From Nemertoderma westbladi (lineage: Eukaryota > Animalia > Xenacoelomorpha): a DNA stretch of 64,000 nt. Position 1 is the stretch's first letter. Each line of letters starts with the position of its first letter. The notes under the pieces are model-generated. The model saw only the letters and a list, made by a program, of their open reading frames with translations. It was not told where the DNA came from and searched no databases. The position numbers and the translations under genes are program-made. Shown piece by piece: positions 44,202 to 63,249 of the stretch. The stretch spans positions 6,208-70,207 of the forward strand of contig JAUCBJ010001029.1 of assembly GCA_032718475.1 (NCBI GenBank), read 5' to 3'.

Positions 44202-45808
44202 TGTTCGCGGTATTTCAACTTTCCATAACACGAGTTGAATATTTTTGTATTTATTTAAAATTGATTATTCCGATATTACTACTGGGTGCGGGATCATGGG
44301 TTTTGGGCACGTTCAATAAACTGGGGGCGATTTATGGGCGAACTTTGGGGCAACTTACAGGGTACGGGAATAATTTCATAGTTATAAGGGCCAGGGGGGA
44401 TGGAAAATGCAAGCAGTATTCAGGTTAGCCTGAGTACTATTAGGCCCTGGCCAACTTCCTGCTGCCTGTAGGGGTGGATTTGGTAATGCGCCAGGCCTAA
44501 AGGACAAGGACTGCCCTTAGCGGTCCCTGGCCAACGGCAGCTACTACGAGACTGAAAAGAACTCGGAACGCTGACTGCTTGTGTCAGGGATTTGCGACGG
44601 GCACCGACGGCCCCTTAGTAGCCAAGCCGTTCTGGTTCTCGATGATCGAACCCCGGGGTTCGTGAGGGGTGGAGCGGACACGCGAACAGGTGGCCAACTA
44701 ACGACTGCCCCCTGACCTAAGCCGTACTGGTTCTCGATGACCGATCCCTTCGGGGTTCGTGAGGGGTGGGACGGACATGCGAAAGGGCTGGCCACAGGAC
44801 TGGTTTGACAAGGACTGCCCTTAGCGGTCTCGGGTCAACGGCAGCTACTACGAGCCTGAAAAGAACTCGGAACGCTGACTGCTTGACTGGGATTTGCGAC
44901 GGGAACCGACGACAGACCCCTTAGCCAAGCCGTTCTGGTTCTCGATGATCGTTCCCTTCGGGGTTCGTGAGGGGTGGAACGGACACGCGATGGGGTCGAA
45001 AGACAAAGGACTAGACTCGACTAGACTCTACTGGCCTACCGACTGTTCGGAGCAGTTTCTCGGCTGCCGAAGCGACTACGAGCCTGAAACGGACTCGGAA
45101 AGCCTAGGTGGTTGGGTTTCTGTGATGAACTGACGGACCCCTAGCCAAGCCGTTCTGGTTCTCGATGATCGAACCCTTCGGGGTTCGTGAGGGGTGGAAC
45201 GGACACGCGAACGGGTCCACCGACACGACAGACTCCTAGCCAAGCCGTACTGGTTCTCGATGACCGAACCCTTCGGGGTTCGAGAGGGGTGGTACGGATA
45301 CGCGACAGAGTCTACCGACTGGACCGACCCTTAGCCAAGCCGTGCTGGTTCTCGATGATCGTTCCCTTCGGGGTTCGTGAGGGGTGGAACGGACACGCGA
45401 CAGGGTCGACCGACACCGACACTACGGCACTAGGACTAGGACCGAGGGAAAATCTGGGGAACATTAGGTAGGCTAAAATTCTGAGCGAACAGCGGGTTAT
45501 TAAATAATATACCGTAGGGATTTATATTATCGTGTATACTTATTGTGAATATTTGGTGTATATTGATTTGGGGAAGCCCAAAATTATTCTTAATCAAGGT
45601 TCAATATTGTTGAACAAGGTTCAACAGAGTTCAGTTACATTAAAGAGTATATCCAACTAATGCAGCTTTTCTCAACCGCAAACTTGCATCTTAGAAAATA
45701 TTCCCTCCCCACAATCAATATCCGGTGACTGGCCGGGGCTCGGTGGTCTGTTAAGTCACGTCTCCAGCATCGGCGTTTTTCCCCCCTGGTGTAGGAATAA
45801 CGGCAACA
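44202..45808 (+). repeat. 5' LTR
   Basis: TGTTCGCGG...GGCAACA; direct repeat of 56759-58365. Confidence 0.97.
44610..45410 (+). ncRNA. Array of six about 90-nt kink-turn/UUCG stem-loop modules in the 5' LTR (putative cis-acting RNA)
   Basis: Cores start at 44621, 44716, 44924, 45144, 45239 and 45334, with compensatory changes in the stems. Confidence 0.7.
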
Positions 45809-46020
45809 AAATTAAGAATAATTATCGTGGTCAACTTCAACTGGTGGAAGTTGAGAATCCTTCAATACTCTTCAAAAACTCTCTACGTGCTTGCCAGCAC
45901 CCACTACGAGGAAACTCTGGTATTTGAGTTGAGACAAAGTCGTGGTTTAATTAATCAGCAAACTCGATCTAACCAACTCGTAGTCGGCAGATCACATATT
46001 TGGAGAGTTGTTAACAGGGA

Positions 46021-46212
46021 ATGGAAGTATCGATCACACCCATTGATATAATTCAAGTTGAGCCAGGAATCTGGCACGTCGAAGTTGAGGTACAAGGAAC
46101 GAACGTCGGACGATTCAGGATTACTGTTCGGGTGGTTCAAGCTGAGTACAATACCTACGAGGAACTGTTTTACGACATCGCGTATCTCGCCATCGACGAG
46201 GCGTTACAATGA
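46021..46212 (+). CDS. 63-aa upstream ORF overlapping the gag-pol start (ATGA)
   Basis: ATG at 46021; its TGA overlaps the gag ATG at 46209; protein-like composition. Confidence 0.4.
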   Translation: MEVSITPIDIIQVEPGIWHVEVEVQGTNVGRFRITVRVVQAEYNTYEELFYDIAYLAIDEALQ

Positions 46213-49200
46213 CAACAAATAACGTATCCGATACCGACGAGATGGATCACAACACAGACTCGGAAGCCGACGAGGTACCAAACGTCAAAAACATGACCCG
46301 TCGGTTAGGGGCTCTTAAAGGCGGAGTAACCCGAGCGTATCAACGGATGGAGAAACAACTCAAGGGAGTCAAAACCCCCCTCAATGAGGTACAAACTCAG
46401 CTTCAAAGTATCCGAAATATCCTACAGCGGTACGAAAGAATGATACAGGCGTACCAAGAGCTCGTTCCCCCCACCGATCTGGAAAACTACCCCAAGCTGG
46501 AAGAACACGTTGTACATCTAGATGGGTTCCGCAAACAACACCGGAGGACCCTCAGCCTTGTGAGAGGCTATGAGGAACAGTATTACAAGAGGGCTGAAAG
46601 AACAGACGCGGAATCAGTACGATCCTCCAGCATCAGGACAGGAGTACATCGCAAGAGAATGGGGTCCACCAGAAATCAGCACTCCAGCGCTAGGAGCGAG
46701 ATATCCGGCTCAGCGCGCAGTTCTCAAGGGGCGCCGCCACTCCGAGACCAACTGCGAGAGCGGAAGGCATTAGCCCTCAAAGCTCGGATGGAAGATGAGT
46801 ATATTCAACTGCAAGCCGAGCAAGATGTATTAGCTGCAGAAACCCAAAGGCGAGAGGCCGAACAAGCGGCCGAACGGCAGGCCGAACAACGTGAACAGGA
46901 AGCCGAACAACGCAGGCGAGAGGCCGAACAACGCAAACACGAGGACGAACGACAGGCCGAACAGCGCAAACACGAGGCCGAACAACGCAAACAGGAGGCC
47001 GAACAACGCGGACGAGAGGCCGAACGGGAGATCGAACAACGTAAATGGGAAGCAGAAATGCGTAAACAACACGCCGAGGCCCAAGCAATTCTCATCCACA
47101 AAAAGAACGCGGATATTGCAAAACTCGCGGAATACGAAGCCGCACTTATAGAACGAGATATTCAACTCTACGAGGACTGGGAGAGGGATATAGATCAGGA
47201 ATATGAACCAATCCCGGTACCGGAATTAGAAAAGTCATTTATACCGACAGCGGCGAAACTTCCGAAACCCGAAATCCCGCCTACCAAACAGTCTACGCTA
47301 TCGGCACAAGCACCGGTGTTCCATCCACCACCGGCTACGTTAAAGAATGAGGAACCCTATTTCCCATCCAACACCACGACAGCGAGTGTACCCAAGTACG
47401 AGCCTGAAAAGGACTCGGAACGGGACGCCACTCCCCGATCAAACAACCCATTTACATCAACACCACTAACTCGCAGCCGCGTCATTATTAAAACTCCGCC
47501 TATCATTGATCCATCAAGTATGGGAGTGAGTGCCAATAACTATAACCCTCCGAGTCACTCCAGTTCAGACGATGTCAGCATCATCCGGGCGTTGGAGAAC
47601 CGCCTTGCCATGCCGAAGATGGAGATTCGCACCTTCGAAGGAGATCCCGTCGATTACCTCAGATTCAAGAAACGGTTCTTTGCGCAGATTGGATCAACGG
47701 ACATAGCCGACGCACAGAAATTGGTATATTTATCGCAATACCTGGGTGACAAACCCCGCAGAATTGTTGCATGTTTTGAAGGAGGTTCTCATGAGGCATA
47801 CTATGACGCATGGAAAACTCTAGACAAAAGATACGGAAATACCGGAACTATAATTAATAAAACTCTAGAGAGACTGATACAGGATGCGGGATCACTAGGG
47901 GACCCACAGAACATACAGGAATTCTCCGACTCTATGAAAGATGCCTATTATACTCTGAAACCCTTAAATAAGGAGGACCAGGTGAACAACATTCTAAACC
48001 TCCGACAGATCGCCCGGAAGTTCCCCGGATGGCTACAAAGTAAGTGGGCTTATAAATGTGTAGATCTCTGGCGCAGACATCCAGATCGAGATCCTAGCTT
48101 CCTTGAAATGTCGGCATTCCTGGATGATATCTCCGAAGCCATGAATGACTCGATGTTTTCAAAACAAAGTCTCGCAAAGTTGGACGGAATAGAGAGCAAC
48201 TCTAGGAGTAAGATAACCCCTCCGAAACCGAGATTCCGCCCCCCACCGGTAAGTACGATGGCCATTACCATGGCCGAGGATTCCGACGACGAAGACTACG
48301 AGGAACCGACATCCGCTGAGGAATGGGCATGTTATCTCGCGAGTTGGGCACCCGAAAGGGAAGGCATCACAAATTCCCTGCTCTGTCTCTTCTGTGGGGA
48401 GAAACATAAAGTGGAATTCTGCAGGAAGTTTCAGTTCGCCGAACTCGTCCCACGTTTCGAGGCGATAATGAAACACCGAGGATGCTTCCGGTGTCTTGGA
48501 ACAGGTCACTACGTTCGGGATTGCGACCAAAGGTCGTGCTGTGCTGTCTGTAACGACCAATGCCATCACACGCTCCTCCACATCCCCGCGAACTTCGACT
48601 TTACTACCCTCCCCTTTCGGATCGAAGCCAGGCGAAGAGGAGAAACAAACCACGTCTTCAAAGGAACCCGGACAACCCAACGGAGAGAAACCAACCCGTT
48701 TAAAATCTCCACCGATACACCACAAGTAACAAATATTTCGGCCACGATTAATCTTATAAATCGCCGCTACATGGTTTTCGCAAAGGTAATCCCAGTAAGG
48801 ATCCAAGGAGTCGGCAAATCTTTGACGACACTCGCATTCCTCGATAACGGGTCCGACGGAACCATCATTGACCGGGATTTTCTCGAGCAACTCGGCCTAG
48901 AATATGAGCCTTGTAAACGGCCCATACAAACCATCACCGATAACAGAGAGGTAGAGTCCGGGGAGGTGCAACTCCAGATGGAAGGAGTGATGAAGGGCTA
49001 CGAAACGGCTAAGTTAACCATAAAGAACGCCTTGGTACACACAGACCTCCGGGTGCGATTCCGACAATCAGCCGAGTACGCCCCCCTCATACAATTGGAC
49101 CGGGACGATGTAGACCTGAGGTGTCCGCAGTTGGACGTAAACCGTATCACCCTACTGATCGGACTTGATACACCGGAACTACAAATCCCCACCGGAGATA

Positions 49201-51695
49201 TCGCCCGATCTATAAACCAGGATGACGGATTTTATGCTGAACGAACAATAATGGGATGGACACTCTGCGGCATTAAGGAGGAAACCACGGACACCTATAC
49301 CTACCTTCCCAAATGTCAGATTAAAGAGAATGTAACCTCCGTGGGTTACTGCTCAGCTTCGGATCTCGACGAGGATTTGTTTCTGGAAACCGAGAAAACC
49401 CAACGAGAGATGACAAAATATTTTAATTTGGAGACCCAGGAGTTCGCGGAAAAGGACGAAAATCCATCCGAAGAGGACCAATATTGTATGGACGTTCTCG
49501 ACCAGGCCACGTTTAAAGACGGACACTGGAGTTCACCTATGTTATGGAAGGACCCAAACAAACCAATGGCAAACAACGCCAGCATGGCACTTAGGCGACT
49601 TAAAGGGATTCTACGCCGGTTGAATGACCAACCCGAGATAAAGGAGAAGTATAACACCGTAATCCAAGGATATCTCGATGATGGATTAGCAGAAATGGTA
49701 CCACGGAACGAACTGCAAGGTGGTAAAAGAACATATTATCTCCCGACCCACTATGTAGTAGAAGCCCGCAAAGGTGGGAAAATCCGAGTGGTAAATGATG
49801 CTGCCGCTATATACCAGGGCGAATCCCTAAACAGTCAACTTTATACGGGACCCAACATATATAGCACACTCATCGGCGTATTGATCAGGTTCAGGGAAAA
49901 CCGGGTAGCATTCACCTGTGACATCAAGGCCATGTTTCATCAAGTTCGTACATTACCAAGAGACTCGGACTGTCTACGTATCCTATGGACGGATAAAACG
50001 CTCACTCAACAGGAGATTAGCCAACTCACGATAAAGGACGTAGACATAATGCGTATGGTCGTCAGGATCTTCGGCGCTAAGGACTCGCCGGTAGCATGCA
50101 GTGACATGCTAAAGAGGACGGCAACCATGTGCGAAAACGAGTTCCCTCCAACCGTCATAGAAACCATTCGACGATGCTTCTACGCGGACGACGGATGCGC
50201 TGGCGCGGATAATGTAGATGAGGCGTATCAGCTAGCAATGGGGATGGTAGAATGTCTAAAGAAAGGAGGGTTCCCACTCGTGAAGTTCAGATCCCACGAC
50301 AAAACACTTATGGAGAAGTTTCCGGAGGACATCCGGCTGGAAAATAACAAGATGTATTCGGAGGATGTGGAACATCGTGTACTCGGGATTGAATGGGACA
50401 TAGAATCAGATGAATTCATCTTCAAATATAAACCCCTACCCAAGCCTATGACAAAAAGGGGATGTTTGTCGATAAAAAGTGCAATCTTCGACCCACTAAA
50501 TTTCATATCTCCAGTAACCTTGGCCGGAATGAACCTGATTAAGGAAATGTGGATAGAAGGACTGGGATGGGACGAAGAGCTTCCCCCATACCTTAGCGTC
50601 AAATGGAGAAAATGGACGGAGCAACTCGAACATCTACATCTTATGCGGATACCTAGACCGTTCTTCCTCGATAAACTGCCCACCGATATCTTCCAGCTCC
50701 ACACCTTTTCGGATGCTTCAAATACCGGAATCGGCGTAGTAACCTTCTTACGGAGACTAAGTAGCGATGGAAACGGCGATACAAGCTTCTTATTCTCCAA
50801 AGCAAAGACGGTATCCGGGGAATTCGTAGCAACGATTCCGAGACTCGAGCTACAAGCTGCAGTTTGGGCAGTAAGACAGAATCGCATGGCCATGCGGAAC
50901 CTACGGATCCCCATAGAATCTCAACACTTCTGGGTAGATTCGAGTATAGTTCTCTATTATCTCCACTCTCCATCACGGCGTCACACCACGTTTGTTGCAA
51001 ACCGAGCCACAGAGATTAAACAGTGTACCGGCCGAGAACAGTGGCATCACGTAAACGGGAAGGAAAACCCAGCGGACTTATCAAGCCAAGGCGCCACCCC
51101 AAAACAACTCGGTAAAAGTAAACTCTGGCTTACAGGCCCGGAATTCCTACGGCAGCCACAGTTAACATGGAGTACCCGATTCGACCCCGAACTCGATAGC
51201 GGAAAATACTCCGAGGACGATAAAGAGATTCGTAAAATCCATCGAAGCAACGCGGTGGAAATTTATAGTTGCCTGACTGAGCCTGCAAAGGACTCGGGCA
51301 GGCACTATAATGTCGCGACGATCACTCAACTAGCGACGTCTTTACATCGGTTGATCGAGCGAACTTCATCCATGAGACGGCTCGTCCACCACGTTATAAC
51401 CCTTCGCAACTTCCTACGGTGGAAAAACAACAAACCGATAGTTCAACGGAATATACAAGAACTCATTATCGCGGAGAAGTGTATTGTTAGATATGTCCAG
51501 AAAGAAAGTTTCCCCGATGAATGGGAACAACTTAGTGCGGGCAAAACGTTGAAACCGGACAGCCCAGTCTACCAACTAAGACCAATGATGGGAGAGGACG
51601 GACTGATCCGACTGAATACCCGGATGGCAAACGCCCCGGTCGAATATGAGGTTAAATACCCGGCGCTTCTGCCCGCTTCTAGCTTCTTCTTCTAG
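46209..51695 (+). CDS. BEL/Pao gag-pol polyprotein (gag with 3 zinc knuckles, protease, RT, RNase H), terminating before the integrase
   Basis: FEGDPVDY..F...F (DUF1759-like); CLFCGEKH, CFRCLGTGH, CAVCNDQCHHTLLH; FLDNGS protease; YYLPTH..KIRVVNDAA, DIKAMFHQV, FYADD RT; LHTFSDAS, TIPRLELQAA, WVDS, NPADLSSQG RNase H. Confidence 0.96.
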   Translation: MTTNNVSDTDEMDHNTDSEADEVPNVKNMTRRLGALKGGVTRAYQRMEKQLKGVKTPLNEVQTQLQSIRNILQRYERMIQAYQELVPPTDLENYPKLEEHVVHLDGFRKQHRRTLSLVRGYEEQYYKRAERTDAESVRSSSIRTGVHRKRMGSTRNQHSSARSEISGSARSSQGAPPLRDQLRERKALALKARMEDEYIQLQAEQDVLAAETQRREAEQAAERQAEQREQEAEQRRREAEQRKHEDERQAEQRKHEAEQRKQEAEQRGREAEREIEQRKWEAEMRKQHAEAQAILIHKKNADIAKLAEYEAALIERDIQLYEDWERDIDQEYEPIPVPELEKSFIPTAAKLPKPEIPPTKQSTLSAQAPVFHPPPATLKNEEPYFPSNTTTASVPKYEPEKDSERDATPRSNNPFTSTPLTRSRVIIKTPPIIDPSSMGVSANNYNPPSHSSSDDVSIIRALENRLAMPKMEIRTFEGDPVDYLRFKKRFFAQIGSTDIADAQKLVYLSQYLGDKPRRIVACFEGGSHEAYYDAWKTLDKRYGNTGTIINKTLERLIQDAGSLGDPQNIQEFSDSMKDAYYTLKPLNKEDQVNNILNLRQIARKFPGWLQSKWAYKCVDLWRRHPDRDPSFLEMSAFLDDISEAMNDSMFSKQSLAKLDGIESNSRSKITPPKPRFRPPPVSTMAITMAEDSDDEDYEEPTSAEEWACYLASWAPEREGITNSLLCLFCGEKHKVEFCRKFQFAELVPRFEAIMKHRGCFRCLGTGHYVRDCDQRSCCAVCNDQCHHTLLHIPANFDFTTLPFRIEARRRGETNHVFKGTRTTQRRETNPFKISTDTPQVTNISATINLINRRYMVFAKVIPVRIQGVGKSLTTLAFLDNGSDGTIIDRDFLEQLGLEYEPCKRPIQTITDNREVESGEVQLQMEGVMKGYETAKLTIKNALVHTDLRVRFRQSAEYAPLIQLDRDDVDLRCPQLDVNRITLLIGLDTPELQIPTGDIARSINQDDGFYAERTIMGWTLCGIKEETTDTYTYLPKCQIKENVTSVGYCSASDLDEDLFLETEKTQREMTKYFNLETQEFAEKDENPSEEDQYCMDVLDQATFKDGHWSSPMLWKDPNKPMANNASMALRRLKGILRRLNDQPEIKEKYNTVIQGYLDDGLAEMVPRNELQGGKRTYYLPTHYVVEARKGGKIRVVNDAAAIYQGESLNSQLYTGPNIYSTLIGVLIRFRENRVAFTCDIKAMFHQVRTLPRDSDCLRILWTDKTLTQQEISQLTIKDVDIMRMVVRIFGAKDSPVACSDMLKRTATMCENEFPPTVIETIRRCFYADDGCAGADNVDEAYQLAMGMVECLKKGGFPLVKFRSHDKTLMEKFPEDIRLENNKMYSEDVEHRVLGIEWDIESDEFIFKYKPLPKPMTKRGCLSIKSAIFDPLNFISPVTLAGMNLIKEMWIEGLGWDEELPPYLSVKWRKWTEQLEHLHLMRIPRPFFLDKLPTDIFQLHTFSDASNTGIGVVTFLRRLSSDGNGDTSFLFSKAKTVSGEFVATIPRLELQAAVWAVRQNRMAMRNLRIPIESQHFWVDSSIVLYYLHSPSRRHTTFVANRATEIKQCTGREQWHHVNGKENPADLSSQGATPKQLGKSKLWLTGPEFLRQPQLTWSTRFDPELDSGKYSEDDKEIRKIHRSNAVEIYSCLTEPAKDSGRHYNVATITQLATSLHRLIERTSSMRRLVHHVITLRNFLRWKNNKPIVQRNIQELIIAEKCIVRYVQKESFPDEWEQLSAGKTLKPDSPVYQLRPMMGEDGLIRLNTRMANAPVEYEVKYPALLPASSFFF

Positions 51696-51715
51696 CGCCA
51701 CCAATCACTCAAAAG

Positions 51716-52738
51716 ATGGCCGACTTACCAGCCACCCATCTACAAGCGGATTCCCAGCCATTCTACGTCACCGGGGTGGACTGTTTCGGACCGTTCACGG
51801 TTATTGAACGACGATCCAACATCAAATGCTGGGGAGCCATCTTCACCTGCCTGAGGTCTAGGGCAATTTACCTAGATATCGTGGTAAATCTGACACAACA
51901 CGCATTCATCAACGCTCTGCGTCGGTTCGTGGCGAACAACGGGACATGCCGCCACATGTATTCCGATAATGGTACAAACTTTGTGGGAGGAGAAAGGGAA
52001 CTCAGAGAGGCGATCGAGGGATGGTTTACCGATAACACCGCATCCCAAGTCTGGAAGGAACACCAGATACAGTGGCACTTCCAGACCCCCTTAGCCCCCC
52101 ATACGAGCGGGGTATGGGAGAAACTGATCGACCTCGTGAAACGATCCATGCGCGTCGCTCTAGGCGATACCCGGGTAACCCATGACACCCTCCGCACAAC
52201 ATTCTGCGAGATCACGGCTACCCTGAACAACCGACCTATTGTCCCTATCCGCGACGACCCCACAGACCTGGAGCCCCTCACTCCTAACCACCTACTGGGG
52301 AGACCCAAAACCCACGTTCTCCCGGAAACCATGTTCCCGGATCCCAACGAGATCGCGAAGCATACAAACTGGAAAAAGGCCCAAGCGTTGGCAGCGCATT
52401 GGTGGAGAATTTGGGCCCAGGAATATCTCATAACCCTCCGGACCAGGAGAAAATGGAACAACACCTACCGGAACGTCGCAGTTGGCGACATGGTACTAGT
52501 TAAAGAAGATCTCAAAGACCGCGTTCACTGGCCTGTGGCGCGGGTCGTGACCATACACCCAAGTAAAGACGGACTTGCGAGGACTGTGACGATACGAACG
52601 GCAAAGGGCCACTACCAACGCCCTATCCAGAAGCTGTGCCTTCTTGAAGGCAATGATAGTGGTGACTCTACGAGAGGTGATAAGATCCCTACTCAAGATC
52701 CTGCTGTGGACATTGGTGACAATTACAAACCCGTGTAA
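51716..52738 (+). CDS. BEL/Pao integrase core and C-terminus, out of frame with pol and lacking the HHCC zinc finger
   Basis: MADLP..PF..TGVDCFGPF, SDNGTNFVG, GVWEKLI, NNRPI, LTPNHLL, WPVARV..DGLARTV..RPIQKL. Confidence 0.93.
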   Translation: MADLPATHLQADSQPFYVTGVDCFGPFTVIERRSNIKCWGAIFTCLRSRAIYLDIVVNLTQHAFINALRRFVANNGTCRHMYSDNGTNFVGGERELREAIEGWFTDNTASQVWKEHQIQWHFQTPLAPHTSGVWEKLIDLVKRSMRVALGDTRVTHDTLRTTFCEITATLNNRPIVPIRDDPTDLEPLTPNHLLGRPKTHVLPETMFPDPNEIAKHTNWKKAQALAAHWWRIWAQEYLITLRTRRKWNNTYRNVAVGDMVLVKEDLKDRVHWPVARVVTIHPSKDGLARTVTIRTAKGHYQRPIQKLCLLEGNDSGDSTRGDKIPTQDPAVDIGDNYKPV

Positions 52739-53016
52739 CCCTTCTCATCATGTTGACAAACTCCTTTAAACTGTGATTTATCGACAACGAGTTATGGACC
52801 CCCCTTAAACCAACTGTAACCACGCAATGGTATTTGTGTTTCCTCGTGTGTTATGTGGAGTCCAGCGTCACCCTGCAGATGTTTCGACTGACGCAGGGTC
52901 GTTTATGTATTGTTTACCCTGATTTTGGTCATCGGGACCAACGATATTGGATTATTGGAAATGGAAAAGATTTGAAGTGGAATTCATTGTATTCATCGCA
53001 GTATGTTATGTTGTCC

Positions 53017-53427
53017 GTTGCGTGCGCAGTTCGGGGCGTAGGCGGTGTAACGAGTCCAGCTGTAGATCCCGGATTGCCGCGCAACACCCCCTCTATCCCG
53101 TTATTCTGGTGGGTCCATGGTGCATCCACGTGACTTCGACGATAGAGGGTTTTATGTTTCTCAGTCGCGTTATTCTGGTGGGACCGTTACGTGGATTTTG
53201 GGGCGTAGGCGGTGTAACGAGTCCAGCTGTAGATCCCAGAATGTTGCGTAACCCCATCCCACATGACTTCGTCGACTGAGCTTTATGTTGTTGGGAGTGT
53301 TATTCTGGTGGGTCCCTGGTGCATCCACGTGACTTCACTCCTAGCGTCTTCATTGTCCGTTACGTGCGCAGTTTGGGGCGTAGGCGGTGTAACGAGTCCA
53401 GCTGTAGATCCCAGATTGCCGCGTAAC
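53017..53427 (+). ncRNA. Triplicated structured RNA module between the integrase and the extra ORF
   Basis: Invariant core GGGGCGTAGGCGGTGTAACGAGTCCAGCTGTAGATCCC closed by covarying stems at 53017-53085, 53186-53252 and 53359-53427. Confidence 0.6.
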
Positions 53428-53990
53428 ACCCCTTCCACGACAAAGATTAACCAAAGAAAATGATTGAATATAGTTGGAAATGATGAAAAGGATCAGACAA
53501 CTCTGCTATAAACCTGAATGATGATGCGTATGCTGATGAAAATGTAATGATGCGCACCCTGGTGTTGCGCTTATAACCAATGATGATAGCCGGGGGGCTA
53601 TAAACCCAATGATGATGTGGAAATAAATAAATGTGAAATAAATGGTGGAAATAAATGTGTTGAAATATATGTGGAAATAAATGAAATGAAATGAAATAAT
53701 AATGAAATGAAAAAAGACAAAAAAAAAGGTATAAAAGAGGTCAAAGAAAAGAATTGGAAAAAAAAAGGACAAAAAAGTCATAAAAAACTGGTTGGATATT
53801 ATGTATAGCTATAGTAACTGTAAATGCTGAATGTATTAGCAATAAGATGATAGATGCCTATATAGCAATGTTATTTTATAAACTGAATTAAATAAAAACT
53901 GAATTATTCTGCTATCGCTATATGCTATAGTTTCAGACTTTCTGGACTTATAATTAACTGAACTAATTTGTAACGGATATAATCGTAAAT

Positions 53991-56591
53991 ATGGACCCAA
54001 ATCGCCAAATTATCGGCGAATTACGTAACACGGTAGATCTACTGGAATATTCGCAACCCGGATCCCCTGACTTTGATACGAATTGGAGCACCCTACTAAA
54101 TGAGAATGTGCGAGTCATTAAATTCACCGGGCGAGAGGGACCGGATTCTAAGAATCTACGAGCCCTCCGGTTAGCCGATGCTAGTACGAGACTGAAAAGA
54201 ACTCGGAACGCAAAGGCAACCGGAGGGGACGATTCGTCGTTTTGGGAAACGTTCCGACAGAGCGTCTACAGATCCCGATGTTTGATCTACGACAACGAGG
54301 GAAACGCGACGCCCACCTCGAAAGCGATTACGTTGGCGAGATGTCAAAGTTTCGTCGACGACAAGAGTACGTACCTCGCCCACTGGGGAAACCTGTCGGA
54401 GTGTACGGCGACGCTTCGAGAGGAACGCATATCGATTATCCAAAACCGCGACGACTACCAGGAAAAGTACGGGGCGAAAGAATACGGTCGATCCTTAGTC
54501 GTCGTCCTCGGAACCCTGGACGGTTTGGTACTGGTGTGCCGAATATTCCCGACACCCAGACAGGAAGTGCAGGCAGCCGGAGCGATCTGGTTGCTGCCTC
54601 CGGAAATCCAAAAGATCCTCTTCGACTTCGACGTCATTAAAATCGGGTCGGATATCAAGGCGGACGTCCGGAACGACTACGCGAATGCTCCTACAGGAAG
54701 AAACCGACGAGACGACCTCAACGCCCTTAGCCATTGCATCGACACTCAAACGCTACTAGCCTGGTTACGATTCGCCGAGTTCATGCGAGGATTCCAAGAG
54801 GTGAGACCGACGAAATCCGGGATCGGCTACCTCGCTGTGCTCAACGGCGGTATCGACTTCAAACCCCAGAAATTCCGGGACTATAATAAAATATACGGTG
54901 GATACCCGGGATTGGAAATAAAGAGCGAGCGAGAGGGTCGATGGAAGGACGTTGATCGGAAATGGACGATACACCAAAGATGGGAGAATCCCGATCGACG
55001 GAACTACGTTTACGTCGTTATGGAATGCTACACCGTCGCTAAGTTTATCTGTAAAACTCTCGATAACCTTATTACGGCGGTCCCCCTTTCCTTCGTCGAC
55101 TACGACTGGAATGAGGTTATAAACCACGCGTTTAAAGCGGTCGAGAACATTACACCGGGAGAATCGAAAACGCCCGCCGTTATCGATTCCTGGGACGAGA
55201 GCGGACCTTACGACATCCCTACGATTACCGAACTTCTCGGTGCGGAGGAGCCTCTGATCTCCTCGGAAGGGGAAGAGATATGGCTAAACGAGGGTGTTCT
55301 ACTCTCCACCCCGAAGCGACAACTCGAGCCGGAGGCCGCGTACGGACCGGCCGCCAAACGGGTTGCCTCGGCCGAACCGATGAAGAGAGCAGGCGTCTAC
55401 ACCCCACGCGGCTCCGGTAGCCCCGCGAGAGAGGTAGCCACTACAGCCGCATTGAGCGACTTTGGCGACATATGCCAACGGTTATCCCCGTATCCTTTCC
55501 CGGGCGGCGAAGATTGGTCGTCGGAGATTCCGAGTACCAGCCAACAACGGACCCGCTCAGCGATACTGGTCGAGGAAGGCCCCAGCGATGCGCCGACACC
55601 CGACGATCTCCTCGGTATCCCTCCGTCGAAAACCCCGGCACCTCTTCGCCGACCAGCGGTAGCTACTACACCCGCCGTTCCTCAGGACCCTATGCGACTA
55701 ACCCGTTGGTACGCCGAGCAAACTGAATGGATCCACCGCCAGAAACGGTCATCCGAGTTGAGACCAGCGGGACACAAAGAGGGTTATCGAAGCGAGAACA
55801 TACTACGCAAAAGCCTAGCATTCCGCGGGCTACCGACCACCGAGAATATTCCGAAGAGCGACCGACTACTCGAATACTACGCCGGCGTCCCGATTCCGAT
55901 ATTCACCGGTCGAGAGATGCAGTTGGAGGTATGCGGCGACTGCGGTTCGGAGCAGTGCCCACGCAGCAGAAGGAATCGGGTTACCGATTCTTGCCTCCAG
56001 CTCCTCGGGATACTCTATTGCCCATACTGCGCGATATCGGGCCACGACGTTTCGGTCTGTCCGATCCTTTATAACCTCTGCACCACGTGCGGTTTCCGTG
56101 GACATTCCGCTAGCCCCCGCTGCTATATTAAATGTCCAACCAAGGACGTTACCGCTATGGGCAATATGGTCATGTTTGAGACATACGCAAACAGCCATTT
56201 AAAGACCAAGTTTCGGAGAAACGCTCGGAATATCGCGCAGGAGATGGCGTGCGGATATTTCTCCTTCCCGGAACGCCTCCACACGTCGGCCTCGCTACCC
56301 TTCCATTACGTGGATCTGCTACTGAGCGCCGGATTATTCGGTCCATTCGAAGTTATTAGACGATTATATTCGTATAAAGAGGAGTTCGGTGATGGAGAAT
56401 GGTTCCTAGAGGCACGCAACTCCGAGTTGCAAAGACGAACCGACATGATACCGTTGCCTTCGAAAGGAAGAGCCGCCAGGAGACAAGCCGAAGCGTTACT
56501 CACAATGGATGTTGACGCTCCTCTACCAGCCATAGCGATCGATGAGAGTCGACGGGCGAAGAGACGAAAAGCGTACCAGAAAAAGAAGTAA
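53991..56591 (+). CDS. Extra retrotransposon ORF (866 aa): degenerate DEDDy 3'-5' exonuclease-like domain, Pro/Ser-rich linker, Cys/His clusters, basic C-terminus
   Basis: LPPEIQKILFDFDVIKIGSDIKADV, CIDTQ, SGIGYLA, W......YVYVVMECY parallel WRN/EXD-family motifs; CGDC, CPYCAISGHDVSVC, CTTCGFRGH; intact 2.6-kb ORF inside the LTRs. Confidence 0.8.
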   Translation: MDPNRQIIGELRNTVDLLEYSQPGSPDFDTNWSTLLNENVRVIKFTGREGPDSKNLRALRLADASTRLKRTRNAKATGGDDSSFWETFRQSVYRSRCLIYDNEGNATPTSKAITLARCQSFVDDKSTYLAHWGNLSECTATLREERISIIQNRDDYQEKYGAKEYGRSLVVVLGTLDGLVLVCRIFPTPRQEVQAAGAIWLLPPEIQKILFDFDVIKIGSDIKADVRNDYANAPTGRNRRDDLNALSHCIDTQTLLAWLRFAEFMRGFQEVRPTKSGIGYLAVLNGGIDFKPQKFRDYNKIYGGYPGLEIKSEREGRWKDVDRKWTIHQRWENPDRRNYVYVVMECYTVAKFICKTLDNLITAVPLSFVDYDWNEVINHAFKAVENITPGESKTPAVIDSWDESGPYDIPTITELLGAEEPLISSEGEEIWLNEGVLLSTPKRQLEPEAAYGPAAKRVASAEPMKRAGVYTPRGSGSPAREVATTAALSDFGDICQRLSPYPFPGGEDWSSEIPSTSQQRTRSAILVEEGPSDAPTPDDLLGIPPSKTPAPLRRPAVATTPAVPQDPMRLTRWYAEQTEWIHRQKRSSELRPAGHKEGYRSENILRKSLAFRGLPTTENIPKSDRLLEYYAGVPIPIFTGREMQLEVCGDCGSEQCPRSRRNRVTDSCLQLLGILYCPYCAISGHDVSVCPILYNLCTTCGFRGHSASPRCYIKCPTKDVTAMGNMVMFETYANSHLKTKFRRNARNIAQEMACGYFSFPERLHTSASLPFHYVDLLLSAGLFGPFEVIRRLYSYKEEFGDGEWFLEARNSELQRRTDMIPLPSKGRAARRQAEALLTMDVDAPLPAIAIDESRRAKRRKAYQKKK

Positions 56592-56758
56592 TGGATTGGG
56601 ATATTCCAGGAACATTTATCGAACATTTATTTTTATACAAACTCTAGGCCAAATTAATTAAAAACTATGCAATATTAAATTTGGGATTTTTTATATTGGG
56701 AATGACCTACGCAAACTCAATCGACCGACAGACTTCACGAAGGTCATTGGGGGGGGAC

Positions 56759-58365
56759 TGTTCGCGGTATTTCAACTTTCCATAACGCGAGTTGAATATT
56801 TTTGTATTTATTTAAAATTGATTATTCCGATATTACTACTGGGTGCGGGATCATGGGTTTTGGGCACGTTCAATAAACTGGGGGCGATTTATGGGCGAAC
56901 TTTGGGGCAACTTACAGGGTACGGGAATAATTTCATAGTTATAAGGGCCAGGGGGGATGGAAAATGCAAGCAGTATTCAGGTTAGCCTGAGTACTATTAG
57001 GCCCTGGCCAACTTCCTGCTGCCTGTAGGGGTGGATTTGGTAATGCGCCAGGCCTAAAGGACAAGGACTGCCCTTAGCGGTCCCTGGCCAACGGCAGCTA
57101 CTACGAGACTGAAAAGAACTCGGAACGCTGACTGCTTGTGTCAGGGATTTGCGACGGGCACCGACGGCCCCTTAGTAGCCAAGCCGTTCTGGTTCTCGAT
57201 GATCGAACCCCGGGGTTCGTGAGGGGTGGAGCGGACACGCGAACAGGTGGCCAACTAACGACTGCCCCCTGACCTAAGCCGTACTGGTTCTCGATGACCG
57301 ATCCCTTCGGGGTTCGTGAGGGGTGGGACGGACATGCGAAAGGGCTGGCCACAGGACTGGTTTGACAAGGACTGCCCTTAGCGGTCTCGGGTCAACGGCA
57401 GCTACTACGAGCCTGAAAAGAACTCGGAACGCTGACTGCTTGACTGGGATTTGCGACGGGAACCGACGACAGACCCCTTAGCCAAGCCGTTCTGGTTCTC
57501 GATGATCGTTCCCTTCGGGGTTCGTGAGGGGTGGAACGGACACGCGATGGGGTCAAAAGACAAAGGACTAGACTCGACTAGACTCTACTGGCCTACCGAC
57601 TGTTCGGAGCAGTTTCTCGGCTGCCGAAGCGACTACGAGCCTGAAACGGACTCGGAAAGCCTAGGTGGTTGGGTTTCTGTGATGAACTGACGGACCCCTA
57701 GCCAAGCCGTTCTGGTTCTCGATGATCGAACCCTTCGGGGTTCGTGAGGGGTGGAACGGACACGCGAACGGGTCCACCGACACGACAGACTCCTAGCCAA
57801 GCCGTACTGGTTCTCGATGACCGAACCCTTCGGGGTTCGAGAGGGGTGGTACGGATACGCGACAGAGTCTACCGACTGGACCGACCCTTAGCCAAGCCGT
57901 GCTGGTTCTCGATGATCGTTCCCTTCGGGGTTCATGAGGGGTGGAACGGACACGCGACAGGGTCGACCGACACCGACACTACGGCACTAGGACTAGGACC
58001 GAGGGAAAATCTGGGGAACATTAGGTAGGCTAAAATTCTGAGCGAACAGCGGGTTATTAAATAATATACCGTAGGGATTTATATTATCGTGTATACTTAT
58101 TGTGAATATTTGGTGTATATTGATTTGGGGAAGCCCAAAATTATTCTTAATCAAGGTTCAATATTGTTGAACAAGGTTCAACAGAGTTCAGTTACATTAA
58201 AGAGTATATCCAACTAATGCAGCTTTTCTCAACCGCAAACTTGCATCTTAGAAAATATTCCCTCCCCACAATCAATATCCGGTGACTGGCCGGGGCTCGG
58301 TGGTCTGTTAAGTCACGTCTCCAGCATCGGCGTTTTTCCCCCCTGGTGTAGGAATAACGGCAACA
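56759..58365 (+). repeat. 3' LTR (with a second copy of the structured RNA array, about 57167-57967)
   Basis: Direct repeat of 44202-45808, preceded by the PPT. Confidence 0.97.
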
Positions 58366-58824: not shown

Positions 58825-61173
58825 TAGTCGAGTCAATCTAGCAAAAAACCCATAAGTATTTCGCAATTAATCCGAACCACACATTTTGGATTCTATATTA
58901 CCTTATTAATGACCAAAAAAAAAGTCTATAAGATTTTATTTTGCGGATCATATGTTTATTAATGGAAATTCTGTGTAAATTTGCATAACACAAGCCAAAC
59001 AAAAGGAACATTAGGGAAGAGTAAGTAGCAAATTGGTGATGTTCCAGAATAATTTAATTAATTTCACAATAAGCTGTGATTCAATGTGAAATTAGTAATA
59101 TTTACACTGGCGTGTTACACATTAATTGCTATATCTCGGAAACTAGAAGTCGCATCAAATTTTAAAATATATCAAAAACTTTACGATATATTAAGGAAAC
59201 CGTTGTAAAAAAAAATCATACATTTCCACTGCAAGGAAATTTCATAATTTCCATTAATGTTAGCGAAGATTTTTCACATAATAAAATTGTGATTGCTCTA
59301 TTGATTTTAGGTGTAATTTATTTATTTCTTTTAGTTTGAAAACCACAATAGTTTATCATATAACAAATAAATTTTTTGGGGATAAGGGTATTTGAGGTCG
59401 ATAAATCCGATGGGCGAGGTTACATCCACCGGTTTAGTAGATAAGTTGTGTAAGTAAGGTCCTTATATTGTACCAGCAAAATTGGTATTAAAAATGGTTA
59501 AATTATTAGACAAATTTCCGTTGCTCTGGAAACTAAATTGGTAACCATATATAAGTATCATTAGAGTAAAGTTTGTCTGTATCAAATTTGGACTATTTGA
59601 TATCAATTTGGACTAAAGGTCAACTAAAGCCTCTCCCCAAGAAAGGAGACCTCGGCATACCAACAAACTATCGTGGGATCTGTCTGCTTGTGGTAGCTGC
59701 CAAAATATACAATAAAATGATTTTATATAGGATTAGGCCTCTCATAGAGAAACTACTGCGTAAGAGCCAAAACGGATTTCGACCAAGTAGATCAACAATA
59801 GCTCAGATACTTGCACTACGGAGACTGATTGAAGGAATTAAGTCAAAGAATCTCCCCGCAGTCATGACTTTTGTGGACTTCAAGAAGGCATTCGACTCCA
59901 TCCATAGAGGTAAAATGCTTGAAATCCTAAGAGCTTATGGAATACCAGAAGTAATTGTTGCTGGCATTGGATTGTTATATTGTGACACAGAAGCGCAGGT
60001 ACTCTCACCAGATAGTGAAACTGAGTTTTTCTCAATCCTGGCTGGCGTACTGCAAGGTGACACATTAGCACCATTACTATTTGTAATTGTGCTGGATTAC
60101 GCAATGAGGACGGCCACAAAGGGTGAAGATCTGGGATTCACACTTCAAGAACGCAGAAGTAGTAGATATCCGGCAACTACAGTCACAGACACCGACTTTG
60201 CGGATGACATCGCCCTGCTCTCTAATACGCTAGCAGATGCACAGCTTCTACTAAATAAAGTGGAGAGGGCTGCTAAGGAGGTTGGATTGTATATAAATGC
60301 TACCAAGACCGAATTCATGACCTTTAATGTTGATGGAAACTTGACAACCATTGATAATAATCAACTAAGGAAGGTCGATGACTTCCAGTACCTTGGATCA
60401 TGGATAGAGAGTAGCAAAAAGGACATAGAAGTTAGGAAAGCAAAGGCTTGGGTAGCTCTATCAAAAATGGATACCATCTGGAAATCAGATCTCTCCAGGC
60501 ACCTGAAGACTAAGTTCTTTCGAGCCACAGTGGAAAGTGTATTTTTATACGGGGGTGAGACCTGGACACTGACTAAATCACTTGAACAACGAATTGATGG
60601 TTGCTACACAAGACTACTAAGGGCAGCCCTAAACATCAGCTGGAGACAACACATGACAAACGCCGAGCTTTATGGTACAATACCACCTGTATCAACCACC
60701 CTCCGTGAACGCAGATTAAGATTCAGTGGGCACTGCTGGCGAAGTAAAGACGAGGTCATACCAGATCTACTTCTCTGGCAACCAACTCATGGAAAGCGTA
60801 GTCGTGGACGACCTGCCATAACATATATAGATCAACTTGAAAGTGATACTGAACTTGGGAGAAACGAAATTGCGACAACTATGGAGAATCGGGAAGCCTG
60901 GAAGGATCTCATTTCCACTGTCCGAGTTCGCTCGACCTAGTAGTAGTAGTAGTATCAAATTTGGAGAAAATCCCACCTATAGACCCCTTGTTGCTAAGTA
61001 AAATCAATGTTGCTAAGGAAAGAAACAGGAAATTGAAGGTGATCCGCATAATATATTTTTATAGACTTTATTGGGGGTATTAACAAGGTAATGTAGAATT
61101 AAAAAAATTGGTCTGGATGAATTGCGAATTTGTTATGGGTTGACCCCCTTTTTCGGATAGATTGACTCGCCTA
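58825..61173. mobile_element. Non-autonomous TIR DNA element (about 1 kb) interrupted by an RTE
   Basis: Imperfect TIRs TAGTCGAGTCAATCTA..ACCCATAA..TTCGCAATT / AATTGCGAA..TTATGGGT..TAGATTGACTCGCCTA; possible TAT target duplication. Confidence 0.7.
59593..60951 (+). mobile_element. 5'-truncated RTE-clade LINE with an uninterrupted RT domain
   Basis: PKKGDL..NYRGI, QNGFR, FVDFKKAFDS, GVLQGDTLAP, FADDI, FQYLGS; (TAG)n tail; 14-bp TSD GTATCAAATTTGGA (59579-59592 and 60952-60965). Confidence 0.95.
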
Positions 61174-61928
61174 TATGTAATATCTGTGAAAACTGTTTGT
61201 TTGGGATTGTGTTTCTGACGTCAAAATAAAACAAAAGCATTCATCCTCGCTAAACGTTTTGTTAAGGGGGATTTCCTGGTCGCTGATTTCATTACAAACG
61301 TCAGTTTTCACTTTTAACGAAAACTATTATGTCTGTCTGTCAGTCTGTCTGTCTGTCGGTTAAACGAAATGTCTGTCAAAATATAAGGACATCATACCAA
61401 CTAGCTAAAACTTATTTATTATTTGTTGCGGTTTTCTTGGTCGCTGATTTCATTTCCGACACCAGTCTCCATATTTGACGGCAACCTACTGGTGGTTCTG
61501 TATGTCGGTTGTTCTGTCTATCCAGCGATCTGTCTATCTATAGGCAGACAGACAGACTGTCTGAAGCCCAATCTTTGTTGCCCAAACTTCAGATTCTTTA
61601 TAAACGAATGACAAACCTTTTTGAAACTTTGTTGCAATCATCGGACAGTTATTTACTTAATTCGAATAATAATTAGCATTATTTCACTTGTCACCTTGAA
61701 AAAGGGATAACTATTTTGTGGATTTTAGATGGACATGACGACTTCAATGACTTTTTTCGAATACTTAAAATAATATTCAAGGCAAGTATTATACCTCATT
61801 GCAAAGGTAAATAAATTCTCTATTAACTTTTATTTTGAATAACTCAAAACTCGACCAGATGACCAGTTACCCCTTTTCTAGGTGACAGACATTATTACTT
61901 ATTGTAACTTTTCTTATTTTCTCACCAG

Positions 61929-63249
61929 GGCCGCGTCTTTGGGGAAGTCGTTCGTAGCCAATCACGACCCCGATGTGTACGTGCGTACGTGTCGGTTACT
62001 ACGGGTGATGAACGCGGTACGTCACCACCTTATCGGTATACCGCTAACGGTGACCCAGACGCGACGGCTCACCTTACCGGTGCTGGTGGACCGACTGGTG
62101 CACCGCAGACACTTCCCGCTCGCGTTGGAGATCTGTCGCTGGATGAGGCTGGGCGACGGAGCCGGCAAGGTGCGGGTACTCACTCACTGGGCGGTCTACA
62201 AGATCGGCCAATCGCGACTCAGCGAGTCGGATATATCGGACGCGATCAGCAAGGCCGTGGTCCCGGGGGTTTCCTTCTCGGAGCTCGCGATGGTCGCGTT
62301 GGACCGGGGCCGACGGGACCTGGCCATCCGGTTGGTCGGACGCGAGCGTCGTGCCGCCGACCGGATCCCGCTCCTCGTCCGACTCGAGCAGTACTCGATG
62401 GCGCTGCAATCCGCGTTGGATTCCGGCGACACCGAACTCGTCTACTTCGCGCTGCTCGCAGTGAAGGAGCGACGCAAGCAGGAGGAGTTCCTCCGCGCGT
62501 TGCGTGCGCACCCCGAGGCCGAGCGGTTGTATCTGCGGTGCTGCGGGAACCCCGGACTGGCCCTCGACGTGCACTACCAGAACGACGCCCACCGCGAGAT
62601 GGCGTTGTGCCGACTGGAGGAGGCCGAGAGGGAGACCGGCCATCAGTCTAGGTTGGCGGCGTTGCGCGGCGCTCTGGAGGAGTTCAACCGGGCGTCCCCA
62701 GGGGGCGCTGAGTTCAACTCGAGGTGCACCGAGGCTCACATCAACCTGCTGGGCTGGCAGCGCAGTCTGGAGACGGAACTCCGTAAACCCTTTATGGATC
62801 TAAGTCTTCTCGACACTATCCTTCGACTCCTCGTTCTCGGTGTCACTAAAACCGCGGAGACCACCCGCAAGGAATTCCGAGTCTCCGACCGACATTTCTG
62901 GTGGGTTAAAATTCGCGCGCTTTCCGAGCTCGGTGATTGGACGGAATTGGAGAAGTTTTCCCGCTCCAAGAAACAGCTGCCCATCCCGCTCGCCTCCTTC
63001 ATACACGTTTGTATCGGCCGCGACAACAAACTCGAGGCCGAGAAGTACATAAATCGGTTACCGGGGGAACAGAGGTCCCGGCAGTTGGCGCGTATCGGTC
63101 GCTACTCGCAAGCGATCGCCGTCGCCGTAGAACAGCGCTGTCTGCCCGATCTCGAGTTCATTGGGGTCCGCGCCGGTGTCACTAACGCCGAAGTTAAGGC
63201 GGCTGTGGCCGCAGCGAAGGCTGGGCTCACAGCAGCCCCGCGACGGTAG
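61929..63249 (+). CDS. VPS16: VPS16 exon 2
   Basis: Polypyrimidine tract and CAG acceptor; AASLGKSF..LRVMNAVR..GIPLT..HWA..SGDTELVY..LSLLDTI..EFRVSDRHFWWVKIRAL..DWTELEKFSRSKK matches Vps16_C; TAG stop at 63247-63249. Confidence 0.95.

What the first reader, a model, noticed from the sequence alone, without database searches (positions are those of the whole stretch)
44610..45410. Six covarying kink-turn + C(UUCG)G rods tandemly arrayed in each LTR
Seen: consensus GACCC-UAGCCAAG-CCGUUC-UGGUUCUC-GAU-GA-U-CGAACCC-UUCG-GGGUUCG-U-GA-GGGGUG-GAACGG-ACACGCGA-GGGUC. C-GAU-GA-U/U-GA-G fits the canonical k-turn (3-nt bulge ending in U, tandem G.A pairs, U.U as in box C/D). Stems change in compensatory fashion: CCGUUC/GAACGG becomes CCGUAC/GUACGG and outer GACCC/GGGUC becomes GACUC/GAGUC in copy 5, while the loops stay nearly fixed. 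Known: k-turns are bound by L7Ae-family proteins (SNU13/15.5K, eL30, SBP2). Inference: a multivalent scaffold recruiting or sponging host L7Ae proteins. LTR repeats are usually read as DNA enhancers, but these look selected as RNA.
Basis: partly seen in the sequence, partly recalled or inferred. Interest (0 to 1): 0.88.

Follow-up and report, generated by a model that had tools for sequence, protein, structure and literature searches.

The report
Modular RNA hairpin scaffold in retrotransposon
A recently inserted jumping gene carries several kinds of repeated hairpin-forming modules, six of them with a textbook kink-turn sequence in each terminal repeat and another kind also written into its protein-coding genes, and these likely act as protein docking sites that help keep its full-length RNA unspliced and get it out of the nucleus.

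Summary
The six rods are real and lie in both 1,607-bp LTRs of a young BEL/Pao retrotransposon (44202-58365). They are not a pure tandem array: three copies of a second module (B: bulged A, GNRA loop, loop-E-like base) are interspersed, and B recurs three times inside gag, pol and ORF3, in two reading frames, on unrelated stems. Two more repeated hairpin types lie between pol and ORF3. Selection on RNA structure is well supported: each rod's outer arms pair best with their own partner (1 of 720 permutations). The k-turn sequence is canonical in 6 of 6 rods and fits SNU13/15.5K better than SBP2 or eL30, but energy models prefer a slipped pairing by 4-6 kcal/mol, so the kink would be protein-induced, if it forms. 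Best model (0.4): multivalent docking sites in a probable LTR intron that hold back splicing and license export of full-length RNA. No close relatives, genome or RNA data were available. No Rfam match; six literature searches listed no such case.

The parts
44202..58365 (+). BEL/Pao (Belpaoviridae-type) LTR retrotransposon, inserted in a 13/19/32-bp satellite
   Evidence: LTR pair, TG..CA ends, 5-bp flanking duplication, domain order
44202..45808 (+). 5' LTR, 1,607 bp
56759..58365 (+). 3' LTR, 3 differences from the 5' LTR; carries all modules at +12557; one change breaks the 4b:4n pair of rod A6
44383..44432 (+). Candidate promoter: TATA-like hexamer 44383, initiator-like CAGT 44414, candidate splice donor 44424 (inferred from consensus only)
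44512..44603 (+). Hairpin B1: long stem, ACUA/GAA loop, 4-bp stem, bulged A, GAAA loop
   Evidence: z -5.0
44609..44695 (+). Rod A1: AGUA/GAA loop at base, receptor-like loop, k-turn pattern 44641-44665, shortened cap
44707..44788 (+). Rod A2: k-turn pattern 44736-44762 (3b:3n C.U), UUCG cap, only rod with the canonical UAA/AU receptor loop
44818..44903 (+). Hairpin B2
   Evidence: z -2.7
44915..44997 (+). Rod A3: k-turn pattern 44944-44970
45059..45116 (+). Hairpin B3 (cap at 45077-45100)
45135..45218 (+). Rod A4: k-turn pattern 45164-45190
   Evidence: z -3.8
45230..45313 (+). Rod A5: two compensatory changes, 3b:3n C.A, k-turn pattern 45259-45285
45325..45408 (+). Rod A6: k-turn pattern 45354-45380
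45499..45794 (+). Candidate poly(A) signals (ATTAAA 45499 with GT-rich tract after it; ATTAAA 45639), alternative initiator TCAGTT 45631, candidate splice acceptor 45794 (inferred)
46209..51695 (+). gag-pol ORF (DUF1759, CCHC knuckle, protease, RT region, Peptidase_A17)
47386..47428 (+). B module inside gag, with AGUA/GAA loop and GAAA cap
   Evidence: z -3.1
51263..51310 (+). B module in the RNase H-integrase linker, GCAA cap, no loop-E part
   Evidence: found de novo at E 0.006; z -5.6
51683..52738 (+). Integrase core and DUF5641 in another frame; about 55-65 residues present in five relatives have no counterpart at the junction, so this copy is broken there
53017..53427 (+). Spacer modules: C hairpin x3 and D internal-loop rod x3 with wholly different outer stems
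53991..56591 (+). ORF3, 866 aa: DEDD/RNase D-like domain lacking the first acidic strand, plus a Cys/His-rich domain
54163..54227 (+). B module inside ORF3 on a 10-bp perfect stem, in a different reading frame from the gag copy
   Evidence: z -6.9

Best explanation
The rods are one of four repeated hairpin-forming module types in a young BEL/Pao retrotransposon, and they likely work as a multivalent protein-docking scaffold on the element's own RNA that would hold back splicing and license export of the full-length genomic transcript. Steps: (1) shown: the modules are on the plus strand of the element, and any LTR sequence must be in the genomic RNA at least once (established retroelement biology). 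(2) Strongly indicated: stems are free to change while loops are kept, i.e. selection on RNA shape. (3) Inferred: transcription starts near 44415, so the array lies in a long R region inside a candidate intron (donor 44424, acceptor 45794) whose removal would clear a 1.8-kb leader holding 12 AUGs. (4) Predicted: free rods sit in a slipped 5-nt-bulge form and host SNU13/15.5K pulls each into a k-turn; six sites give avidity. (5) Inferred: bound SNU13 slows excision of that intron, as reported for 15.5K-bound K-loops in mammalian introns, so that some transcripts keep the R region needed for replication. (6) Most speculative: the B caps, spaced 2.3-3.9 kb along the RNA, bind a second factor, probably the element's ORF3 or Gag zinc fingers, that marks the whole RNA for export or packaging.
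For: Own-arm pairing is the best of 720 permutations for A at three arm lengths, 1 of 120 (20-nt arms) and 2 of 120 (12-nt arms) for B, 1 of 6 for C and for D. The helix under B's internal loop shows A-U, C-G and U-A at one pair and G-C/C-G at the next; 3 of 500 shuffles reach the score. B occurs 6 times per genome-length RNA counting one LTR, all plus strand, 0 minus; expected 0-0.007 per shuffled interior. Coding copies sit on stems at z -3.1, -5.6, -6.9, and the loop change GAAA to GCAA stays within GNRA. K-turn rules of Huang et al. are met in 6 of 6: -1b:-1n C-G, non-Watson-Crick 3b:3n, and both variants have 3b = C, the well-folding class; the one 3n = A occurs only with 3b = C, avoiding a U-A pair that would block folding. 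Snu13 needs only the GA pairs, U at loop position 3, a purine at position 2, a closing pair and prefers U.U. Precedents: 15.5K-bound K-loops suppress intron excision (preprint 10.64898/2026.08.03.742641, abstract and discussion); a leader k-turn that forms only on L7Ae binding (PMC6298567 abstract); an extra ORF with a cysteine-rich loop needed for gRNA export in Cer1 (PMC10309623 passages). A distant relative, L015, has a 1.64-kb LTR with six hairpin starts of a different sequence between a candidate donor and acceptor downstream of its TATA box.
Against: The k-turn register is 4.0-6.0 kcal/mol less stable than the slipped one in 5 of 5 rods evaluated, and its key pair has probability 0.007 or less in 6 of 6; half of the 4-bp C helix is G.U. 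Core covariation is nil (255 of 500); invariance among six young paralogs can reflect recent duplication (A3 and A6 differ at 1 position). Start site, poly(A) site and intron come from simple consensus matches only; an alternative initiator at 45631 would put the array in U3, outside any intron. Neither module is found in 6 of 6 distant BEL/Pao loci, and 4 of 5 control LTRs are short with no array. ORF3 binding to RNA is untested, and both structure predictions failed (pLDDT 32 and 38). The B copy in ORF3 would also be in a spliced ORF3 mRNA, which fits poorly with a pure packaging signal.
Confidence: 0.4

Rival explanations
1. Same RNA-level selection, but the rods keep the slipped fold (5-nt bulge over a G.U-rich stem) and all modules are recognised by element-encoded proteins (Gag nucleocapsid, ORF3) as dispersed packaging or dimerisation signals; no L7Ae protein is involved.
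For: The slipped register is the predicted fold in 6 of 6 rods. B caps are spread along the whole RNA. C and D lie upstream of the presumed ORF3 acceptor and so would be in full-length RNA only (inferred).
Against: Does not explain why the bulge and facing bases spell a complete k-turn (0.0004 over 5,000 shuffles), nor why the A5 change removes the closing pair of the slipped form while fitting k-turn rules.
Confidence: 0.25
2. RNA-only architecture: the internal loop of each rod is a receptor that docks the GNRA loop of a B hairpin, and the k-turn is an architectural bend, so that the RNA compacts or dimerises by itself.
For: The loop can be read as an 11-nt receptor with C2-G10, A4-A5 and A8 in 6 of 6 rods; A2 has the canonical UAA/AU loop through two changes and A5 the canonical G.U. 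All six B caps are GNRA.
Against: 5 of 6 rods have C for the core U3, and changes at that step cost more than 2.5 kcal/mol; the sixth has a C.C mismatch at the first pair, over 2 kcal/mol (bioRxiv 2022.12.15.518780, parts 2-3). One cap is GCAA, and the receptor is highly specific for GAAA.
Confidence: 0.12
3. No function as RNA: either DNA enhancer repeats in U3 or neutral amplification of a palindromic unit by template slippage during reverse transcription.
For: Tandem repeats in U3 with a role in transcription are common (PMC3601003 passage). Core changes break pairs about as often as they keep them. A 95-bp period is evident in A4-A6.
Against: Whole outer stems are replaced yet stay complementary in four module types; plus strand folds better than minus in 4 of 4 rods and in B1, with a gap of 10.5 kcal/mol for A4 as RNA against 1.1 as DNA; copies inside ORFs keep the hairpin in two frames.
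Confidence: 0.1
4. Decoy in trans: an LTR-derived RNA soaks up SNU13 or related host proteins to weaken splicing, snoRNP or silencing pathways.
For: Twelve k-turn patterns per element, 11 passing the strict scan; solo LTRs could make such RNA (inference).
Against: The companion module inside ORFs points to action in cis; no evidence of a separate abundant transcript could be sought.
Confidence: 0.08
5. Self-cleaving ribozyme array, as in Penelope pLTRs or retrozymes (recalled).
For: Repeated structured units in a terminal repeat.
Against: No Rfam family at gathering score in the window and no ribozyme family at E up to 10 in the LTR or spacer.
Confidence: 0.03

Closest known systems
Standard k-turns bound by SNU13/15.5K (U4 snRNA, box C/D), and intronic 15.5K-bound K-loop RNAs (bioRxiv 10.64898/2026.08.03.742641)
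   Same: 3-nt bulge ending in U, tandem GA pairs, U.U next pair, C-G closing pair; proposed effect on intron excision.
   Different: The pair after U.U is C-G rather than the box C/D G-C, so boxes C and D are not spelled; six copies in a retrotransposon LTR, each inside a 85-nt rod with further loops; a competing fold is predicted.
Retroviral and retrotransposon export elements (CTE, RRE, Rex response element; recalled) and Cer1 CERV (PMC10309623)
   Same: Structured cis elements and an extra ORF in the env position proposed to get intron-containing genomic RNA exported.
   Different: No sequence or Rfam match; here four unrelated module types are repeated and dispersed through LTR, ORFs and spacer; ORF3 is a DEDD-like plus Cys-rich protein unrelated to CERV by any search run.
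Bdelloid LTR retrotransposons with DEDDy ORF3 (Juno, Vesta; PMC5408684)
   Same: [quoted passage not shown]
   Different: There the catalytic residues are intact and no BEL/Pao clade is named in the passages read; here the element is BEL/Pao, the first acidic strand is missing and a Cys/His-rich domain follows.
SECIS element
   Same: AUGA/GA core in an untranslated region.
   Different: Upper helix of 7 bp closed by UUCG, no apical AAR, and C-G where SBP2 wants purine-pyrimidine.
Sarcin-ricin / eukaryotic 5S loop E motif and GAAA/11-nt receptor (motif definitions: loop E recalled; receptor)
   Same: AGUA/GAA in A1 and two B copies; receptor-like loop in all rods; GNRA caps.
   Different: LTR B copies have C for the bulged G; five rods lack the receptor's core U.

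Membership tests
BEL/Pao LTR retrotransposon | Two LTRs with TG..CA ends and a 5-bp target duplication | tested here: met
   (the 5 bases also occur in the surrounding satellite unit)
BEL/Pao LTR retrotransposon | Gag (DUF1759, CCHC) - protease - RT - Peptidase_A17 - integrase (rve, DUF5641) order | tested here: met
   RT itself not hit by Pfam at E 0.01, but the region matches BEL/Pao polyproteins at up to 41%
Standard k-turn | 3-nt bulge followed by G.A and A.G | tested here: met
   6 of 6 rods per LTR by sequence (definition)
Standard k-turn | -1b:-1n C-G and non-Watson-Crick 3b:3n | tested here: met
   C-G 6 of 6; U.U x4, C.U, C.A
Standard k-turn | Canonical C helix formed in the k-turn register | tested here: inconclusive
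   4 pairs, two G.U; slipped register favoured by 4.0-6.0 kcal/mol in 5 rods, pair probability at most 0.007 in 6; model ignores sheared GA and protein
Standard k-turn | 50-degree kink and L7Ae-family binding | not testable with these tools
   needs FRET, probing, EMSA
Box C/D snoRNA | Box C RUGAUGA paired with box D CUGA | tested here: not met
   no RUGAUGA in any rod; no family at gathering score
SECIS element | Long helix II with apical AAR; purine-pyrimidine pair after the quartet | tested here: not met
   7-bp helix, UUCG cap, C-G pair
GAAA 11-nt receptor | Core C2-G10 and U3.A8 | tested here: not met
   C2-G10 and A8 in 6 of 6, U3 in 1 of 6
GAAA 11-nt receptor | A4-A5 platform over G6-U7 (or tolerated variant) | tested here: met
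   AA 6 of 6; G-C x5, G.U x1
Sarcin-ricin / loop E motif | AGUA opposite GAA between two helices (definition recalled) | tested here: inconclusive
   exact in A1, gag B and ORF3 B; ACUA in B1-B3; absent in pol B; strict scanner passed only A1 and gag B
Known self-cleaving ribozymes and Rfam cis elements | Match to an Rfam covariance model | tested here: not met
Active DEDDy exonuclease (ORF3) | ExoI D-x-E strand | tested here: not met
   gap in the alignment where P0121, P0123 and P0128 have it; the fold assignment rests on 25 of 30 Atlas hits to PF01612 at 0.91 and weak PDB hits
Nuclear export / intron-retention element | Raises cytoplasmic unspliced RNA in a reporter | not testable with these tools
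   no RNA data available

The most novel reading that the evidence does not exclude
The retrotransposon RNA is a natural self-assembling nanostructure: host SNU13 kinks twelve LTR rods, whose receptor-like loops capture GNRA hairpins planted every 2-4 kb along the genome, folding a 13-kb RNA into a compact particle that escapes splicing and silencing.
Probability: 0.12. Interest if true: 0.92.

Novelty: new variant of a known kind. Interest (0 to 1): 0.7.

Why it matters
How invertebrate LTR retrotransposons keep and export unspliced genomic RNA is largely open, and LTR repeats are usually read as DNA enhancers. Here the same element repeats four RNA modules, with swapped stems and fixed loops, across LTR, ORFs and spacer, which hands over small, directly testable RNA parts and a named candidate host partner (SNU13/15.5K). 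If confirmed it would be, as far as six literature searches show (listings only), the first k-turn array in a retroelement LTR, and a link between transposon biology and 15.5K-dependent intron control.

Tried and rejected
No genome was held for the window and no sequencing-run data could be obtained, so other genomic copies, start site, splicing and expression are unknown. Searches for close relatives failed: rod and B patterns in viral contigs 0 and 0; B pattern in metagenome contigs gave 10 loci, 0 of 10 with a match to pol or ORF3, treated as chance; pol in viral contigs 0 confirmed; best pol homologs are about 41% identical; ORF3 gave none in the word-based search and 8 in the full HMMER search. 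Six distant BEL/Pao loci served as controls: no A or B module at E below 0.26; the strict k-turn scan gave 1 hit in 68 kb, outside an LTR. The short B model also hit a repeat outside the element at E 0.0095 (60915-60942 minus, 63591-63618 plus), with a non-GNRA loop, so E-values near 0.01 are not decisive by themselves. ORF3 folds were low confidence and Foldseek gave nothing; the Atlas gave only leads for the Cys-rich domain. Sliding 100-nt windows were uninformative because they cut the rods. A local fold of the whole array mispairs A2, A3 and A6 with neighbours, a caution on independent folding. Host taxon was not established. Earlier scan findings: nothing relevant. Rejected: snoRNA, SECIS, known ribozyme, tRNA. 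The supplement of the 11-nt receptor preprint, which holds values for each double mutant, was not seen and could change the receptor verdict.

Full report
Setting. The finding lies in the 5' LTR of a retrotransposon at 44202-58365. The LTRs are 1,607 bp, differ at 3 positions, end TG..CA and are flanked by the same five bases, so the insertion is young. Pfam gives DUF1759, a CCHC knuckle, protease and Peptidase_A17 in the long ORF and rve plus DUF5641 in the next frame: BEL/Pao. Nearest polyproteins are about 41% identical, the named ones mostly from marine invertebrates and fish. The integrase junction lacks about 55-65 residues seen in 5 of 5 relatives and changes frame. A third ORF of 866 aa has 8 relatives among 1.84 billion proteins, with an RNase D/DEDD-like N-terminal part (25 of 30 Atlas hits PF01612, score 0.91; weak hits to EXD2 and a CCHC-bearing protein) that lacks the first acidic strand its relatives keep, and a conserved Cys/His-rich part. 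The element sits in a satellite between two Vps16 coding blocks on the same strand, probably an intron.

The observation. Six rods (A1-A6) are present per LTR. Parsing them gives, base to tip: closing helix, UA/GA loop (GA/GA in A2, AGUA/GAA in A1), 2 bp, a purine-rich internal loop, 6-bp helix, G.U-rich segment, C-GAU-GA, 7-bp helix, UUCG (5 of 6), GA-G. The strict k-turn scan finds 11 sites in the window, all in these rods, none on the minus strand; frequency 0.0004 over 5,000 shuffles of rod A4 and none in 500 shuffled LTRs. The pattern was chosen after seeing the sequence, so this overstates significance somewhat.

Three copies of a second module, B, are interleaved (order B A A B A B A A A). 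Its 24-nt cap recurs in gag (47397) and ORF3 (54185) in different frames; expected 0-0.007 per shuffled interior. A model built from these five found a sixth in the RNase H-integrase linker at E 0.006, with GCAA for GAAA and U.G for C-G. The coding copies stand on unrelated stems with z -3.1, -5.6 and -6.9 (minus strands -2.1, -4.8, -5.9). The three pairs under B's internal loop covary (3 of 500 shuffles; related copies can inflate this). Caps are 2,320, 3,878, 2,910 and 2,917 nt apart outside the LTR clusters. Between pol and ORF3 two more modules, C and D, occur three times each with fixed inner loops and different, self-matching outer stems (D1 folds as well on the minus strand). Fixed loops on exchangeable stems in four module types is the main evidence for selection on RNA shape.

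Is it a k-turn? By the rules of Huang et al. (PMC8191799, abstract and introduction read) the sequence is standard: C-G at -1, non-Watson-Crick at 3b:3n, and both variants have C at 3b. By Clery et al. (PMC1874613, abstract and passages) Snu13 needs the GA pairs, U at loop position 3, prefers a purine at position 2 and U.U, and has no further helix II requirement, whereas SBP2 needs purine-pyrimidine at the next pair and L30 prefers protruding C or A; the rods fit Snu13. Against this, ViennaRNA prefers a register slipped by two bases by 4.0-6.0 kcal/mol in the 5 rods evaluated (A1 could not be), with k-turn pair probability at most 0.007. The model does not score sheared GA pairs or protein; L7Ae can bind at 10 pM and fold k-turns that do not fold alone (PMC5061560 passages), and an archaeal leader k-turn forms only on binding (PMC6298567 abstract). 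I put the k-turn at about even odds.

Where in the transcript. Simple scans give a TATA-like hexamer at 44383 with CAGT 31 nt downstream, a donor-like site at 44424, ATTAAA at 45499 and 45639, an acceptor-like site at 45794, an alternative initiator at 45631 and AATAAA at 44315. In both the array is in the 3' end of the RNA. Of six distant BEL/Pao loci, five have a recognisable LTR; four are 316-555 bp without arrays and one, L015, is 1.64 kb with repeated hairpins of another sequence (z -4.4, -4.6) between TATA 1871, donor 2095, acceptor 3116 and AATAAA 3132. That is one parallel case, not a rule.

Mechanism. I favour cis-acting docking sites that keep part of the RNA unspliced and export it (0.4). 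A 2026 preprint reports that 15.5K-bound K-loops suppress excision of their host introns (abstract and discussion read); Cer1 uses an extra ORF with a cysteine-rich loop for gRNA export (PMC10309623 passages); DEDDy ORF3s are known from bdelloid LTR elements (PMC5408684 passages). Rivals are packaging signals read by Gag or ORF3 in the slipped fold (0.25), RNA-only docking of GNRA caps on receptor-like loops (0.12; five rods lack the core U), DNA-level or neutral repeats (0.10; PMC3601003 passage), a decoy in trans (0.08) and a ribozyme (0.03).

Novelty. No Rfam match; six searches of the held library (listings and abstract starts only) showed no k-turn array in an LTR; subscription papers are largely not covered. 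The building blocks and the job proposed are known, the combination and setting are not: new variant of a known kind, interest 0.7. The limits are serious: one element copy, no close relatives, no RNA data.

Noticed in passing
window 53017-53427: Two further repeated hairpin modules (C x3, D x3; the middle D carries a C on top) with fixed inner loops and swapped outer stems in the pol-ORF3 spacer.
   Followed up: partly
window 53480-53616: Four box C-like RUGAUGA motifs with nearby CUGA within 140 nt of the spacer; frequency of 4 or more 0.0065 over 2,000 shuffles; weak Rfam C/D hits below threshold. Could be K-loops or ATG microsatellite decay.
   Followed up: partly
window 53991-56591: ORF3 belongs to an unnamed family (8 relatives) joining a DEDD-like domain to a Cys/His-rich domain; this copy lacks the first acidic strand.
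   Followed up: partly
window 51680-51695: Integrase N-terminal part is missing and the frame changes, although the LTRs differ at only 3 positions; the copy probably moved with help from another.
   Followed up: partly
window 45831-45854: An 8-bp hairpin 22 nt after the 5' LTR where a tRNA primer site is expected; no clear tRNA complement was identified.
   Followed up: no
window 44440-44499: A further hairpin just after the candidate start site that shares its right-hand purine tract with the A rods (z -1.9).
   Followed up: no
window 22380-23606 and 61882-63249: Vps16 N- and C-terminal coding blocks, apparently one gene split by a 38-kb intron filled with a 15-kb satellite, this element and another RT fragment (59570-60940).
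   Followed up: partly
window 15640-19401 (minus): 1,253-codon open frame without Pfam match that spans a 36-bp tandem repeat (17848-18951).
   Followed up: no
L015 1564-3205: Distant BEL/Pao element with a 1.64-kb LTR holding three 87-bp hairpin repeats and further related hairpins inside a candidate intron.
   Followed up: partly
L011-L016: BEL/Pao retrotransposons, a metazoan group, on contigs filed under bacterial MAGs; probably eukaryotic contamination.
   Followed up: no
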